A DNA stretch of 64,000 bases from an uncultured Melioribacteraceae bacterium (GCA_965365345.1 CBDUBH010000001.1:47515-111514), one strand, 5' to 3'. Positions 12,750-62,407 are shown, numbered from the stretch's first letter. Notes: a model not told the origin generated them from the sequence alone. Numbers and translations: made by a program.

Positions 12750-12774
12750 GTCATTTCGAACGAAGTGAGAAATC
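12750..12774 (+). repeat. GTCAT...ATC hairpin repeat (stem ATTTC/GAAAT)
   Basis: GTCATTTCGAACGAAGTGAGAAATC, a member of the intergenic hairpin superfamily seen throughout the window. Confidence 0.7.
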
Positions 12775-12834
12775 TTTGTCTTAAATTATGAATTTCAATT
12801 TCATTATAAAAAAATATTTATTGTCAATTAAAAT

Positions 12835-12862
12835 GTAGAGACGTAGCATGCTTCATCTCTAC
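12835..12862. repeat. GTAGAGA...TCTCTAC hairpin repeat
   Basis: GTAGAGACGTAGCATGCTTCATCTCTAC. A second copy of the same stem (GTAGAGACGAGATATATCTCGTCTCTAC) is at 38873-38900. Confidence 0.7.
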
Positions 12863-13027
12863 TAAATTTGGGTTATTTATATTTTGCTAACAAATACAAA
12901 ATCGCGCAAATTTTAAAAATTATTTAGATATTTTTGATTATTACAATTTTTAAATCTTTTCATTTTTCTATCTTTAAATCTTTACATCTTTTAATTAAAA
13001 AAAATTCTACATTCTAAATTGAACAAA

Positions 13028-13570
13028 ATGAAACTATTTGCAATTCTTCTTGGCGGAAATACAAAAAACAGCAATACCGAAATTCACGATATGGTTTTTG
13101 TTGCGGCAGAATCAATTCAATCAACTTACAATTCACTTTTAGAAAATTGGTTCGGAATTCCCGATGGACTTCATATTGATTCATATTCTGAAATTTCGCA
13201 CGCAAACGGATACAAAATAAATTTAGTTGATGAAAATTTTGAAATTCCCTTAAACTCCAAAAAACTTTACTTTGTAAATCTTGGCGCATACGATGAAAAT
13301 ATTTTCGGCGAAATTCATACTTATTCGGTAATTGTTGCGGAAAATGAAAACGAAGCAAAAAAATCAGCTAAGCAGAAATTTCCTAAAGGAACCGGAAAAA
13401 TTCACACAGACGCAATTTTTGAAATAAAAGACCGCTTAATTTTTCCGGAATCGAAAAAAATGAAAATTTCGCTTGAATTTACAGGTGAAGAAAAAGATTT
13501 TGAATTTAATAATGAATATAATCCGATCCCAAAAGAATTTATAAAAGAATTTAAGAAAAAGTTTAAATGA
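13028..13570 (+). CDS. DUF1543-like two-repeat protein (hypothetical)
   Basis: ORF 13019 (TTG) or 13028 (ATG) to 13570. Two internal half-repeats: KLFAILLGGNTKNSNTEIHDMVFV...GLHIDSY and KLYFVNLGAYDENIFGEIHTYSVI...KIHTDAI. From memory this resembles the DUF1543 pattern. Not verified by search. Confidence 0.6.
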   Translation: MKLFAILLGGNTKNSNTEIHDMVFVAAESIQSTYNSLLENWFGIPDGLHIDSYSEISHANGYKINLVDENFEIPLNSKKLYFVNLGAYDENIFGEIHTYSVIVAENENEAKKSAKQKFPKGTGKIHTDAIFEIKDRLIFPESKKMKISLEFTGEEKDFEFNNEYNPIPKEFIKEFKKKFK

Positions 13571-13862
13571 TCTTTCCCTTCATTTTCAAAATTAAATCAA
13601 TTATTTAATTTAAATTTTAATATTTCAATTAATTTTTAAGTATGTTAAAAGGTTAATTATTTTTATTATTCAGCTGTTTTTTTGATTAAAAAAGGCATTA
13701 ATTTCCGGTAAAATATTTATCGTAAAAAAGTGAAATAAAGTGCATTAAAATTTGCACTGAAATCATTGAAAATAAGCCCGTAAAGTGAACCCATTAACAT
13801 TTAAAAACATTGAAAATGATAGAAATTTTTAATATTTTTGCAATTTAATTTGGAGATTTTAA

Positions 13863-59430: not shown

Positions 59431-59476
59431 GAAAATTAAACTTTGTAAAAATTAATCCCAAATTTTTAATCTTCAT

Positions 59477-59492
59477 TGTTCCACGTGAAACA
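59477..59492. promoter_or_regulatory. parS (ParB/Spo0J binding site)
   Basis: TGTTCCACGTGAAACA is identical to the classical Bacillus subtilis parS 16-mer. It lies 58 bp upstream of clpB. Confidence 0.8.
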
Positions 59493-59549
59493 TTTCACAA
59501 TAAAAATTTGTAAAAGTGATAGTTTATATTTAGGAGGAAATTTAAAAAT

Positions 59550-62171
59550 ATGGCATTTAACCCGAACAAATTTACAGTAAAAGCACAAGAGATTGTTCAA
59601 AATTCAATTGAAATTGCTCAGAATTATTCAAATCAGGTTTTGGAACCCGAACATCTTTTGGCTGCTATGATTCAGGATGATCAAAATATAATTGTTCCTA
59701 TTTTGAAGAAAAGTGAATCAAATTTAAATCAGATAAGATTAAAAGTTAATGAGATTCTGGAAGGTTTACCGAAAGTAAGCGGTGCATCGGGATTAGGGAA
59801 TCAATCACTTTCGAATGCTCTTGCAAAACTATTTGATAACGCTTTTGATGAAGCGAAAAAATTAAAGGATGAATATATTTCATCCGAGCATCTGCTTTTG
59901 GCTTTGGTTTCGTATGAAGGAAAAGCCGGTCAGCTTTTGCGCGATAACGGAGTAACAAGAAATTCCGTGCTCGCTGCTTTAAAAGATATTCGCGGAACTC
60001 AAAGAGTAACTTCGCAAAATCCCGAAGATGTTTATCAATCATTAAAAAAATACGGAAAAGATCTAAACGATTTGGCAAGCACAGGAAAATTAGATCCGGT
60101 AATTGGACGCGATGAAGAAATTAGAAGAGTGCTGCAAGTTTTATCAAGAAGAACTAAAAATAATCCGGTTTTAATTGGCGATCCCGGAGTTGGCAAAACT
60201 GCAATTGCAGAAGGAATTGCACAAAGAATTGTAAGTGGTGATGTGCCCGAAAATCTTAAAACAAAAAAAATTGTTGCTTTGGATTTAGGCGCGCTTGTCG
60301 CTGGAACTCAATTTCGCGGACAATTTGAAGAAAGATTGAAAGCAGTGATTAAGGAAGTTCAAGATTCAAATGGTGAAATAATTTTGTTTATTGACGAACT
60401 TCATAATTTAGTTGGCGCAGGCGCAACCCAAGGTTCAATGGATGCGGCAAATATTTTGAAGCCGGCTTTGGCTCGCGGTGAACTTCACGCAATCGGCGCA
60501 ACAACTTTGGATGAATTCAGAAAGCATATCGAAAAAGATGCTGCGCTTGAAAGAAGATTTCAGCCGGTTTTGGTAAGCGAGCCAAATGAAGAAGATGCAA
60601 TTTCAATTTTGCGCGGATTAAAAGAAAGATATGAAGTTCATCATGGAGTTAGAATTACGGATGCAGCGATTGTTGCCGCGGTTCAACTTTCAAACAGATA
60701 TATTTCCGACAGATTTTTGCCCGATAAAGCAATTGATCTTATTGATGAAGCCGCTTCAAAATTAAGAATCGAAATTGATTCAATGCCTGAGGAATTGGAT
60801 TCGCTCGAAAGAAAAATTAAACAACTCGAAATTGAAAAACAAGCTTTACTGCGAGAAAAGGATGAAGAGTCTGAAAAAAGATTAGGCGATATCGAAAAAG
60901 AATTAAGTAATCTTGCCGAAGAAAGAAATCAATTAAGATCTCATTGGGATCTGGAAAAAAATAAAATTCAGACAATTCAAAAATTAAAAAGTGATATTGA
61001 AAATGCAAAACTCGATGCTGAAAAATTTGAGCGCGAGGGAAATCTCGGAAAAGTTGCCGAACTTCGTTACGGCGTAATTACGGCTTTGGAAAAGCAATTA
61101 AAAGAAGAAACAAAATCACTTTCGGAAATTCAGAGCAAAAGTAAAATGCTGAAAGAAGAAGTTGATGCCGAAGATATTGCGGAAGTTGTTGCAAAATGGA
61201 CTGGAATTCCGGTTAGCAAAATGTTGGAAAGCGAACGCAGCAAATTGATACGAATGGAAGATGATCTGCATAAGCGAGTTGTCGGTCAGGAAAGTGCGGT
61301 TGTTGCCGTGTCTGATGCAATTCGAAGATCACGCGCGGGATTGCAAGATGCAAATCGTCCGATTGGATCTTTTATCTTTTTAGGAACTACGGGAGTCGGA
61401 AAAACCGAACTTGCGCGCGCCTTGGCTGAATTTCTTTTTGATGATGAACACGCAATGGTGCGGATTGATATGAGCGAGTACATGGAAAAATTTTCCGTAT
61501 CGCGGTTGGTCGGCGCGCCTCCGGGATATGTCGGTTACGAAGAAGGAGGACAGTTGACCGAAGCGGTTCGCCGCAGACCATACTCCGTTGTTCTTTTGGA
61601 CGAAATTGAAAAAGCGCATCCGGATGTTTTTAATATTCTGCTTCAAGTTCTAGATGACGGAAGATTGACCGATAGCCAAGGCAGAACTGTTGATTTCAAA
61701 AATACAATAATTATTATGACATCAAATTTGGGCTCGCATTTAATTCAGGAAAGATTGGAAACAATGACCGAAGAAAATGCGGATGAAATTCTTGCGGATT
61801 TGCGAACAAAATTAATTGATCTGCTGCGAAAAACAATTCGTCCGGAGTTTCTAAACAGAATTGATGAAGTTGTTTTATTCAAACCTTTGTTAAGAAGCGA
61901 ATTAAGACAAATTGTCGATATTCAATTGGAAAGATTGAAAAAATCTTTGGAAGAAAAAAATATGAAATTGGAAATCGATGAAGAATCAAAAGATTGGCTT
62001 GCTAAAATTGGATATGATGTCACTTATGGCGCGCGTCCTTTAAAAAGAACAATTCAAAAATATATTGTAAATCCGTTAGCACAGGAATTACTGATGGGAA
62101 AATTTTCTGCGGGCGATACAATTCAAGTGAAATTAGGAAACACCGGAAAATTTGAATTTGAGAAAGAGTAA
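59550..62171 (+). CDS. clpB: ATP-dependent chaperone ClpB
   Basis: 873 aa. Clp N-domain, two AAA+ modules ([10 protein letters not shown]; [10 protein letters not shown]), a long middle coiled-coil typical of ClpB, and GARPLKR. Confidence 0.97.
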
Positions 62172-62310
62172 ATTCACCGCAAAGTCGCTGAGACGCGAAG
62201 GGAATTTTTATTTCTTCTCACTTTGGGGAGAGCCTGCCCGAATTGGGTTCAGTCAGGGCGGAGATTAAAGGTGAGGGGAATTTTTAATAAATTAAAAAAA
62301 TAATATAACT

Positions 62311-62407
62311 GTCATTCCGGCTTGCCCGGAATCTTTTTTAATTTTTCATTGCGAGAAACGTAGTGACGAAGCAATCTCAGAGATCGCCACGCTCCGCTCG
62401 CGATGAC
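62311..62407. repeat. Cluster of three hairpin-superfamily elements after clpB
   Basis: 62311-62333 is GTCATTCCGGCTTGCCCGGAATC. 62346-62376 is TTCATTGCGAGAAACGTAGTGACGAAGCAATC. 62382-62407 is GATCGCCACGCTCCGCTCGCGATGAC. Confidence 0.8.

What the first reader, a model, noticed from the sequence alone, without database searches (positions are those of the whole stretch)
12750..62407. Abundant intergenic hairpin superfamily with invariant GTCAT...ATC flanks and compensatory stem variation
By eye, about 25-30 copies occur in both orientations in almost every longer intergenic gap. The unit is GTC-AT[stem]-loop-[stem']AT-C, or its reverse complement GAT...ATGAC.

The flanks stay constant, but the stem core differs between copies and is always self-complementary:
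- ATTCCGG/CCGGAAT: 32443-32475, 44062-44100, 51593-51623, 62311-62333; reverse copies at 24524-24553, 44181-44203, 52815-52850.
- ATTCTG/CAGAAT: 24589-24632, 55197-55238, 57305-57340.
- ATTCTCG/CGAGAAT: 57260-57282.
- ATTCCCG/CGGGAAT: 22661-22692.
- ATTGC/GCAAT: 32515-32546, 32593-32618, 50600-50631, 62346-62376.
- ATCGC/GCGAT: 50547-50578, 62382-62407.
- ATTTC/GAAAT: 12750-12774.

Loops fall into a CTTGT-like pentaloop class and a longer GAG..GTGAAACGACGCG / GAACGAAGTGA class. Paired changes on both arms suggest selection on the folded hairpin (RNA or ssDNA) rather than on primary sequence. Only some copies carry a T-run, and several T-runs point against the flanking genes (55197-55238, 57305-57340), so these are not simply terminators. 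I know of no named family for them.
Basis: seen in the sequence. Interest (0 to 1): 0.6.

Follow-up and report, generated by a model that had tools for sequence, protein, structure and literature searches.

The report
Known nuclease-target DNA hairpin repeats
The abundant intergenic hairpins are real, but they belong to a repeat superfamily already described (CGTC-tagged REPs, also called NTS/SRM), whose constant flanks are the bases a small GIY-YIG nuclease (Ssn) needs to bind and cut single-stranded DNA; this is a new host lineage with some new shape variants, not a new kind of element.

Summary
All 19 listed copies are at the stated coordinates. A strict search finds 20 GTC-AT[stem]loop[stem']AT-C units against 0.48 expected, and about 27 with degenerate copies, all of the credible ones intergenic. 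"Almost every longer gap" overstates it: 12 of 26 gaps right of dnaA are occupied, and none in the first 12.7 kb.

The features fit the CGTC-tagged REPs of Di Nocera 2013, which include Neisseria dRS3 and Rickettsia RPE-4/-6. In 2025 these were tied to Ssn, a ~94-aa GIY-YIG single-strand DNA nuclease. Its cutting depends on the GTC before the palindrome and its binding on the C after it, which are exactly the invariant flanks here.

I reproduced the link. In 75 metagenomic ssn genes, 62 carry such a hairpin on at least one side and 39 on both, with strong covariation. The same 23-24-mer occurs in more than 15 phyla.

Three syntenic Ignavibacteriales relatives have no copies, so this lineage gained them (or the relatives lost them).

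No ssn gene lies in the ~100 kb I could read. The second class (5-bp stem, GAG…CGNR interior) is not matched by the published SRM search pattern and falls outside the stem and loop sizes given for CGTC REPs. Its partner is unproven.

The parts
12750..12774 (+). B/C-class copy: stem ATTTC/GAAAT, interior GAACGAAGTGA; lies between dnaA and the DUF1543 gene
22661..22692 (+). Copy with a 7-bp stem ATTCCCG and a long B-like interior
22712..22756 (-). Composite Y-shaped A-class copy: short outer stem plus a CTTGT hairpin plus a CCCGATnnnATCGGG hairpin
22790..22834 (+). A-class long form with outer helix GCCGTC/GACGGC, a CCCGAT hairpin nested in the loop and a T-run
24524..24553 (-). A-class copy (ATTCCGG, loop CAAAGT) with outer helix TGTC/GACA
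24589..24632 (+). A-class long form (ATTCTGG with a G.T pair), outer helix GCCGTC/GACGGC, A-run and T-run; DNA fold -14.7 kcal/mol, z -8.0
29535..29556 (-). Degenerate A-class copy (tag GTAAT, decayed 5' arm)
32443..32475 (+). A-class long form, loop CTTGT, outer helix GCCGTC/GACGGC
32515..32546 (+). B-class copy (stem ATTGC, 18-nt interior); left member of a tags-outward pair
32556..32579 (+). B/C-class copy (GTCATTTAGGGCAAGCGAGAAATC); the only window copy that matches the published SRM search pattern
32593..32618 (-). B-class short copy GTCATTGCGAGCGTAGCGCGGCAATC; the identical 26-mer occurs in a Dehalococcoidia MAG (L021)
44062..44100 (+). A-class composite with an extra hairpin CCTGCCGGTAGGCAGG in the loop; z -4.95
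44181..44203 (-). A-class short copy, loop CTTGC
50508..50529 (+). Degenerate A-class copy (3' end reads AAC instead of AATC)
50547..50578 (+). B-class copy, stem ATCGC/GCGAT; left member of a tags-outward pair
50600..50631 (-). B-class copy, stem ATTGC/GCAAT; right member of the pair
51593..51623 (+). A-class long form with outer helix CTGTC/GACAG; the only copy in a divergent gap
52815..52850 (-). A-class long form with outer helix AGCTGTC/GACAGCT
55110..55136 (-). B/C-class copy, stem ATTTC/GAAAT
55145..55170 (-). B/C-class copy with a degenerate tag (GTTAT)
55197..55238 (-). A-class long form (ATTCTGG/CCAGAAT); the T-run is on the strand opposite the flanking genes
57260..57282 (-). A-class copy with stem ATTCTCG/CGAGAAT and a degenerate tag (GTAAT)
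57305..57340 (-). A-class long form (ATTCTG, 6 bp)
57383..57427 (+). Composite Y-shaped A-class copy, same build as 22712-22756
62311..62333 (+). A-class short copy followed by a T-run, 140 nt after the clpB stop; a plausible terminator
62345..62376 (+). B-class copy with a degenerate tag (TTCAT); left member of a tags-outward pair with a 5-nt spacer
62382..62407 (-). B-class short copy, stem ATCGC/GCGAT; right member of the pair

Best explanation
The hairpins are members of the CGTC-tagged REP superfamily, also called NTS/SRM, in an uncultured Ignavibacteriales genome.

Anatomy of the unit: a Y-GTC tag, a stem that always opens with A-T and T-A, a variable and covarying remainder of the stem and loop, and an unpaired C.

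Inferred mechanism: the tag-bearing strand folds when the DNA is single-stranded, for example at replication, repair or DNA uptake. An Ssn-type GIY-YIG nuclease of about 95 aa binds the hairpin, with the 3' C as the key contact, and cuts a few bases upstream, with the GTC as the key determinant.

Inferred origin: the copies are non-autonomous relatives of the IS-like cassette hairpin(+)-ssn-hairpin(-). The tight tags-outward pairs look like that cassette without its gene. The copies multiplied in this lineage.

Side effects: a few copies (long forms with an outer helix and a T-run, and 62311-62333) probably also serve as terminators.

What is shown: sequence membership, structure and covariation, the link between hairpin and ssn in other genomes, and absence of copies from three relatives.

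What is inferred: that this genome encodes an Ssn that acts on these copies, and how the copies spread.
For: - The features match the published definition of CGTC REPs: tag CGTC or TGTC, stems starting AT, unpaired 3' tail starting with C, intergenic, paired copies, no RAYT link. In the window, Y precedes GTC in 21 of 22 copies.
- Chenal 2025: NTS = CGTCATTCCCGCGMAVGCGGGAATCYRG. Binding depends most on the C after the palindrome and cleavage on the 3 nt before it. The enzyme acts on ssDNA only. ssn genes are flanked by the motif.
- Reproduced here: 74 of 80 loci encoding the ~95-aa PF01541 protein contain such hairpins. Typically a + copy ends 10-25 nt before the start codon and a - copy lies 10-30 nt after the stop.
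- With hairpins ascertained by flanks only, 62 of 75 genes have one on at least one side and 39 of 75 on both. There are 117 copies in the expected orientation against 39 in the opposite one.
- Covariation on that set: 97% of cells paired, 6 of 8 pairs with changes on both sides, score 0.446 against 0.148 in shuffles (0 of 500 reach it), and slid controls at most 0.114.
- GTCATTCCGG-N4-7-CCGGAATC occurs in more than 15 phyla. Y precedes it in 139 of 143 copies, and in 134 of 143 the loop ends add an 8th pair.
- Among copies with one mismatch, G.T outnumbers A.C 16 to 6 on the tag strand.
- Syntenic oriC regions of three relatives (GyrB 85-87% identical) have no copies. The window has 7 in the same stretch.
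- A-class copies fold well as DNA, with z from -3.8 to -8.0.
Against: - No GIY-YIG ORF lies in the window or in the about 100 kb of the contig that I could read. Whether the genome has ssn is unknown.
- The published SRM search pattern matches only 1 of 27 window copies. Stems here are 7 or 5 bp rather than 8-9 bp, and the tail is CTT or CAGAC rather than CCAG.
- Chenal et al. report that changing the palindrome while keeping the hairpin abolishes activity of the Neisseria enzyme. Cleavage of these variants by any given Ssn therefore cannot be assumed.
- In the long forms the GTC is paired with a downstream GAC, which could hide the cleavage determinant.
- B/C-class copies are not significantly stable under nearest-neighbour DNA parameters (z -1.1 to +0.9). 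I never found them directly bracketing an ssn gene; only intermediates did so (L153, L165).
- No replication-strand bias (10 + against 9 -).
- The way these repeats multiply has never been demonstrated for this family.
Confidence: 0.72

Rival explanations
1. They are classical REP elements moved by a REP-associated tyrosine transposase (RAYT, IS200/IS605-like Y1 HUH enzyme).
For: Same general logic: short tagged hairpins, inverted pairs, a single-strand mechanism. Bacteroidota do have RAYT subclasses with 'atypical secondary structures'. The window also holds two GTAG-tagged palindromes of another family.
Against: The tag is YGTC, not GTAG. Di Nocera et al. found no RAYT or other IS200 gene flanked by CGTC repeats. 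In 80 loci the flanked gene is a GIY-YIG protein. No Y1 transposase domain was found in the small ORFs scanned in the window, nor among the genes called on the flanking stretches of the contig.
Confidence: 0.05
2. Their main role is at the RNA level, as intrinsic terminators or 3' mRNA stabilisers, and the shared flanks come only from common descent.
For: 26 of 27 copies lie in gaps that hold the 3' end of at least one gene (same-direction or convergent neighbours). Long forms make strong hairpins with T-runs (24589-24632, 22790-34), and 62311-33 follows clpB. The G.T excess fits RNA as well as ssDNA. Di Nocera et al. argue that many copies are transcribed.
Against: Only about 5 element-derived hairpins score as terminator-like, and some of those face the wrong way (44200-44182, 55197-55238, 57305-57340). 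Clear terminators in the window are different hairpins (21024, 30049, 35564, 62546). Copies occur in both orientations in the same gap. Conservation of unpaired GTC and C across more than 15 phyla is not what a terminator needs, but it is what Ssn needs. Three relatives manage without them at the same genes.
Confidence: 0.12
3. The B/C class (5-bp stem, GAG…CGNR interior, variable inner hairpin) is a separate element recognised by a different, unidentified protein. It only resembles the Ssn motif at its base.
For: It is not matched by the SRM pattern or by the CGTC family definitions. 37 of 40 '+ then -' neighbours lie within 100 nt. Only 1 ssn gene was found in 1.08 Mb of B-ascertained DNA, and that one is flanked by A-type copies.
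Against: It has the same GTCAT…ATC base and Y tag. It co-occurs with the A class in single 8-kb stretches from Patescibacteria, Dehalococcoidia, Rickettsiales and Bacteroidales. About 20 A-type copies occur in the B-ascertained loci. Intermediates (8-bp A stem with a GAGCGAAGCG interior) sit next to ssn in L153 and L165. A-ascertained random loci also had 0 ssn genes in 0.9 Mb, so rarity of ssn nearby says little. Three wider B pairs flank unrelated ORFs.
Confidence: 0.2
4. They are unrelated palindromes that share a few bases by chance, or fragments of an ordinary DDE-type IS/MITE with terminal inverted repeats and target duplications.
For: AT-rich DNA gives many weak hairpins (the relaxed scan gives 43 in shuffles).
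Against: 20 observed against 0.48 expected under the strict definition. Identical units occur in many phyla. No direct repeats flank the units, and there is no longer element around them.
Confidence: 0.01

Closest known systems
CGTC-tagged REPs (Di Nocera, De Gregorio & Rocco 2013, BMC Genomics 14:522), including Neisseria dRS3 and Rickettsia RPE-4/-6
   Same: Unpaired CGTC or TGTC tag. Stem opening with A-T, T-A. For the A class, a 4-5 nt loop. Unpaired tail starting with C. Intergenic location, often in inverted pairs or clusters. Several subfamilies in one genome. Already reported in the Chlorobi/Bacteroidetes group.
   Different: Stems are 7 bp (A class) or 5 bp (B/C class) instead of 8-9 bp. 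The tail is CTT/CTC or CAGAC instead of CCA. B/C interiors are 11-22 nt. Composite copies carry a second hairpin. Long forms pair the tag in an outer helix. Ignavibacteria were not among the hosts listed.
NTS / SRM repeats and the Ssn family of GIY-YIG (cd10448) single-strand DNA nucleases (Chenal et al. 2025, Nat Commun 16:2388)
   Same: The constant bases here (GTC before the palindrome, C after it) are the ones shown to govern cleavage and binding. The element is a directional hairpin. I reproduced the hairpin-gene-hairpin layout in 80 loci. A surface-protein gene bracketed by repeat clusters (23099-24490) recalls the NTS-gene-NTS layout of Neisseria.
   Different: No ssn gene was seen in the DNA available for this organism. 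Only 1 of 27 copies fits the published degenerate pattern. No biochemical data exist for such AT-rich, short-stem variants. The role in natural transformation is known only for Neisseria.
GTAG-tagged REP/REPIN elements with RAYT transposases (E. coli, Pseudomonas)
   Same: Tagged hairpins, inverted doublets, a gene bracketed by its own repeats, recognition of single-stranded DNA, patchy distribution between related genomes.
   Different: Different tag and a different enzyme fold (HUH Y1 against GIY-YIG). Membership fails on both defining features.
Rho-independent terminators
   Same: GC-containing hairpin followed by a T-run in a minority of copies (62311-33, 24589-24632, 22790-34).
   Different: Most copies lack a correctly oriented T-run. 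Conserved unpaired flanks are not a terminator feature.

Membership tests
CGTC-tagged REP superfamily | Unpaired CGTC (or TGTC/CCTC) tag at the 5' end of the palindrome | tested here: met
   Y-GTC in 21 of 22 intact window copies. In the long forms the GTC can pair with a downstream GAC.
CGTC-tagged REP superfamily | Stem of 8-9 bp whose first two pairs are A-T and T-A | tested here: inconclusive
   AT/AT is present in every strict copy by definition, and in 11 of 14 flank-only matches the rest of the stem pairs. Stem length is 7 bp (A class) or 5 bp (B/C class), shorter than published.
CGTC-tagged REP superfamily | Loop of 4-5 nt | tested here: inconclusive
   A class: 5-7 nt (CTTGT, CTTGC, CAAAGT). 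B/C class and composites: 11-21 nt. The paper allows exceptions in a few species.
CGTC-tagged REP superfamily | 3-nt unpaired tail, consensus CCA | tested here: inconclusive
   The first C is invariant. The next bases are TT/TC or AG-A, not CA. In GC-rich genomes the same unit has CA in 117 of 143 copies.
CGTC-tagged REP superfamily | Repeated, intergenic, often in inverted pairs; no flanked transposase gene | tested here: met
   27 of 27 copies are intergenic. 12 gaps are occupied, most with 2-4 copies. There are four tags-outward pairs. No transposase in the window.
SRM / NTS (Ssn-related motif) | Match to the published pattern HGTCWYN(0-2)YYVSBRHN(0-5)WNVSBRGN(0-2)RNCYNB | tested here: not met
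   1 of 27 copies matches (32555-32582). The pattern was hand-built from 29 genomes of 4 phyla.
SRM / NTS (Ssn-related motif) | GTC just 5' of the palindrome (cleavage determinant) and C just 3' of it (binding determinant), on one defined strand | tested here: met
   Invariant in the 20 strict copies by definition, and enriched 40-fold over shuffles. The functional meaning comes from the paper.
SRM / NTS (Ssn-related motif) | An ssn (cd10448 GIY-YIG, ~95 aa) gene in the same genome, usually bracketed by the motif | tested here: inconclusive
   None in the window plus about 36 kb of flanks (HMM and phmmer searches at E up to 10 and 1; Pfam). The rest of the genome could not be reached. The association itself was confirmed in 80 other loci.
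SRM / NTS (Ssn-related motif) | Bound and cut by Ssn as single-stranded DNA, not as dsDNA or RNA | not testable with these tools
   Needs biochemistry.
GTAG REP / RAYT system | GTAG tag and a RAYT gene flanked by the repeats | tested here: not met
   The tag is YGTC. No Y1_Tnp domain in the ORFs tested. The literature reports no RAYT link for CGTC repeats.
Intrinsic terminators | Stable hairpin followed by a T-run, on the sense strand just after a gene | tested here: not met
   True for a few copies only (62311-33; 24589-24632; 22790-34). Most copies lack it or face the wrong way.

The most novel reading that the evidence does not exclude
The B/C class may be an undescribed, very widespread branch of this repeat superfamily. 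Its build is GTC, AT plus 3 covarying pairs, a conserved GA(G)…(C)GNR internal loop that may form tandem G.A pairs, and a freely variable inner hairpin, often the GCGNAGC mini-hairpin. It nearly always occurs in tight tags-outward pairs. It is seen here in Ignavibacteriales, Patescibacteria, Dehalococcoidia, Rickettsiales, Bacteroidales and many IMG/VR contigs. It might have its own cognate protein or its own Ssn specificity class. The modular nesting of other hairpins (CCCGATnnnATCGGG) in the loops would then point to a cut-and-insert activity aimed at hairpin loops.
Probability: 0.3. Interest if true: 0.5.

Novelty: new member of a known kind. Interest (0 to 1): 0.3.

Why it matters
For annotating this genome, it explains about 27 otherwise puzzling intergenic elements. 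It also predicts an ssn-type GIY-YIG gene elsewhere in the chromosome.

More broadly, it adds Ignavibacteriales to the hosts. It shows that the published SRM search pattern misses AT-rich, short-stem and long-interior variants, so the spread of the Ssn-repeat system is probably underestimated.

The complete absence of copies from syntenic regions of three relatives gives a clean case of recent gain. Such a case could be used to study how these repeats multiply, which has never been shown for this family.

The B/C class offers candidate substrates for new Ssn specificities, which matter for single-strand DNA tools.

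Tried and rejected
- Rfam at gathering threshold on the whole window, and at E up to 10 on two repeat-rich gaps: nothing meaningful.
- Pfam on small and unknown ORFs of the window and flanks, looking for a Y1 transposase or a nuclease: none.
- Two hand-made regular expressions for GIY-YIG motifs on six-frame translations: only noise. These were replaced by phmmer and HMM searches.
- The published SRM pattern: 1 hit. This shows the pattern is too narrow here, not that the copies are unrelated.
- The 92-aa ORF bracketed by repeats in L122 (7970-8248): not a nuclease. It gives a weak TM1266-like hit.
- PDB sequence search with an Ssn homologue: only spurious WD40 hits, and no matching solved structure found.
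- Searching for the Ssn of this lineage through the AT-rich locus L183: that protein belongs to Roizmanbacteria/Patescibacteria, not Ignavibacteria.
- Looking for a gene bracketed by B-class copies: three candidates, all unrelated ORFs.
- An idea that the outer helices of the long forms are inverted copies of random upstream flanks made by fold-back synthesis. I rejected it because the outer helices share a consensus, AGCYGTC…GACRGCT, with Y and R covarying.
- Full-text search for the B-class sequence in papers: only unrelated primer hits.
- A relaxed hairpin scan of the window: too many false positives to use as a census.

It was validated by at least 8000 PF01541 hits of up to 84% identity. 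All later steps used real sequences (alignment A1).

Full report
**What is in the window**

The window is the replication-origin region of an uncultured Ignavibacteriales bacterium with 32% GC.
- The gene order is rnpA, then dnaA (11040-12461), a DUF1543 gene, dnaN, recF, dciA, gyrB, gyrA.
- GC skew changes sign near 12 kb, and perfect DnaA boxes lie on both sides of dnaA.
- Several proteins carry T9SS sorting domains.
- The best named GyrB relatives are Ignavibacteriales and Ignavibacteriaceae MAGs at 82-86% identity.
- The window is identical to part of an ENA metagenome contig of 116.7 kb. I could read about 36 kb of that contig beyond the window.

**Check of the observation**

- I defined a unit strictly as GTC, a perfect stem of at least 5 bp starting AT, a loop of 3-24 nt, then C. 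This gives 20 units, against 0.48 on average in 50 third-order Markov shuffles, with a maximum of 3.
- One unit lies inside a gene and has an AT-only stem, so it is probably chance.
- Adding copies with a decayed tag or arm gives about 27, all intergenic, although intergenic DNA is only 15% of the span.
- A search that fixes only the flanks (GTCAT-N15-ATC) returns 14 matches on the contig. Eleven of these are hairpins, so pairing is not an artefact of how I searched.
- The copies occupy 12 of 26 gaps of at least 60 nt to the right of dnaA, usually 2-4 per gap, and none of the gaps in the first 12.7 kb. 'Almost every longer gap' is too strong.

**Anatomy: two classes**

The A class is YGTC-ATTC(C/T)GG-CTTGT-CC(G/A)GAAT-C.
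- It comes in a short form and in a long form. In the long form, AGCYGTC pairs with GACRGCT after a 2-nt bulge.
- It also comes in composite forms that carry a second hairpin in the loop.
- As single-stranded DNA these fold far better than shuffles, with z from -3.8 to -8.0.

- The build is a 5-bp stem (ATTGC, ATCGC, ATTTC or ATTCC), an interior that starts GA(G/A) and ends (C)GNR, and a small inner hairpin, often GCGNAGC.
- Nearest-neighbour energies do not favour these copies (z -1.1 to +0.9). Support for their structure rests on the covarying 5-bp stem.
- B copies sit in tight pairs with the tags pointing outward (32515/32593, 50547/50600, 62345/62382).

**What it is**

A literature search led to two papers.

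Di Nocera et al. 2013 sorted short bacterial palindromes into GTAG-tagged and CGTC-tagged superfamilies.
- The CGTC type has an unpaired CGTC or TGTC tag and a stem that 'almost invariably' begins with AT.
- It has a 4-5 nt loop and a short tail beginning with C.
- It includes Neisseria dRS3 and Rickettsia RPE-4/-6.
- It had been seen in Chlorobi and Bacteroidetes.
- Unlike GTAG REPs, it had no associated transposase.
- In the window, Y precedes GTC in 21 of 22 intact copies.

Chenal et al. 2025 then found the partner.
- It is Ssn, a single-domain GIY-YIG protein of about 94 aa (CDD family cd10448).
- Ssn binds the repeat (NTS = CGTCATTCCCGCGMAVGCGGGAATCYRG, generalised as SRM) only as single-stranded DNA, and cuts a few bases upstream.
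- The C right after the palindrome matters most for binding. The three bases before the palindrome (GTC) matter most for cutting.
- ssn genes are themselves flanked by the repeat.

**Independent tests of that link**

They come from alpha- to epsilon-Proteobacteria, Chloroflexota, Patescibacteria, Nitrospirota, Planctomycetota, Actinobacteria, Firmicutes, Bacteroidota, Ignavibacteria, Cloacimonadota, Caldiserica and others.
- By my own rough estimate, a pattern of this length would give about 70 chance hits in the whole collection. These hits are not chance: Y precedes in 139 of 143, the tail is CA in 117, and in 134 the loop ends add an eighth pair around a GNRN tetraloop or a CTTGA-type pentaloop.
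- The exact window form (loop CTTGT) turned up in Nitrospirota.
With an alignment of 20 real members I fetched 80 metagenomic loci.
- 74 of the 80 loci contain the hairpins. Typically one copy ends 10-25 nt before the start codon and an inverted one lies 10-30 nt after the stop.
- With hairpins ascertained by flanks only, 62 of 75 genes have one on at least one side and 39 on both.
- On those 59 distinct 24-mers, 97% of cells pair and 6 of 8 pairs show changes on both sides. The covariation score is 0.446 against 0.148 in shuffles (0 of 500 reach it) and at most 0.114 when partners are slid.
- Among copies with a single mismatch, G.T outnumbers A.C 16 to 6 on the tag strand (p = 0.05). This is weak support that this particular strand folds.

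**Evidence of gain in this lineage**

- The syntenic dnaA-to-peptidase regions of three relatives (GyrB 85-87% identical) have the same gene order, short gaps and not one copy in about 22 kb each. The window has seven in that stretch.
- The window also has two extra genes there.
- One of them, a BamB/PQQ-like T9SS protein (23099-24490), is bracketed by repeat clusters (22661-22834 and 24524-24632). This recalls the NTS-gene-NTS layout around surface-protein genes in Neisseria.

**What remains open**

- I found no GIY-YIG gene in the window or its readable flanks, and the rest of the genome was out of reach. Chenal et al. report ssn in 81% of genomes with more than 200 motifs. The density here is about 35 copies in the roughly 84 kb of the contig that I censused, which would extrapolate to many hundreds of copies. 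Presence of ssn is therefore likely but inferred.
- The published SRM pattern matches only one window copy. Stems and tails differ, and the Neisseria enzyme is sensitive to stem sequence.
- The B/C class shares the base and tag and co-occurs with the A class in single 8-kb stretches from four other phyla. One case is an identical 26-mer in a Dehalococcoidia MAG.
- Hybrid copies (A stem with a B interior) lie next to ssn in L153 and L165.
- However, B copies never directly bracket ssn in my sample. 37 of 40 '+ then -' neighbours are within 100 nt. The few wider pairs flank unrelated ORFs.
- Whether Ssn or something else handles the B/C class is unknown.

**Terminators**

The pattern scan flags only about five element-derived hairpins, some facing the wrong way. 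The clear terminators of the window are other hairpins. A few copies (62311-33 after clpB, and the long forms with T-runs) may double as terminators.

**Verdict**

It is nonetheless a new host and a set of variants of a repeat-nuclease system that is already described, not a new kind of element.

Noticed in passing
window 12835-12862 and 38873-38900: Two palindromes starting GTAGAGAC. The second is a perfect 12-bp stem followed by a T-run after the FKBP gene. They carry the GTAG tag typical of classical RAYT-type REPs and are a different family from the finding.
   Followed up: partly
window 12921-12995 and 45988-46054: Arrays of an 8-bp periodic unit (A/C)ATCTTTn, about 8-9 units each. One lies inside the origin region between dnaA and the DUF1543 gene. 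Function unknown.
   Followed up: no
window 10473-11036 and 12553-12561: Perfect DnaA boxes (TTATCCACA) on both sides of dnaA: four before it, one of them inside the neighbouring gene, and one after it. GC skew flips near 12 kb, so oriC flanks dnaA. No hairpin copies occur to the left of it within 12.7 kb.
   Followed up: partly
window 13019-13570 and 23099-24490: Two genes (DUF1543; BamB/PQQ-like T9SS protein) are absent from the otherwise syntenic regions of three relatives. The second is bracketed by hairpin clusters.
   Followed up: partly
window 22718-22732, 22803-22817, 57406-57422: A small hairpin module CCCGATnnnATCGGG is nested in the loops of A-class copies. The same module appears inside B-class interiors in unrelated IMG/VR contigs (e.g. 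TCCCGATAAATCGGGA), suggesting modular insertion into hairpin loops.
   Followed up: partly
window 57183-57196 and 59482-59491: Palindromic CACGTGAAAC boxes upstream of the gidA/mnmG-like gene and of clpB. Possibly a shared regulator site.
   Followed up: no
window 30049-30080: A plain bidirectional terminator, AAAAAAGCCGTCA-TTTTTG-TGACGGCTTTTTT. Its stem GCCGTC/GACGGC is the same as the outer helix of the A-class long forms.
   Followed up: no
L095 3083-5067 (Dehalococcoidia MAG) and L176, L178: Tandem arrays of the hairpin at 62-171 nt spacing. In L178 two subfamilies alternate around three ssn copies, so some genomes hold large clusters rather than scattered copies.
   Followed up: no
L122 2057-3874 (same contig, beyond the right end of the window): An HpaII-like restriction enzyme gene next to an HNH gene.
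   Followed up: no
L012 3691-5265 (Patescibacteria): A called ORF reads through a B-class pair, giving the C-terminal peptide '…SLRGSLATKQSP…EIASLPSVARNDRQF'. Such repeat-derived tails probably contaminate many predicted proteins.
   Followed up: no
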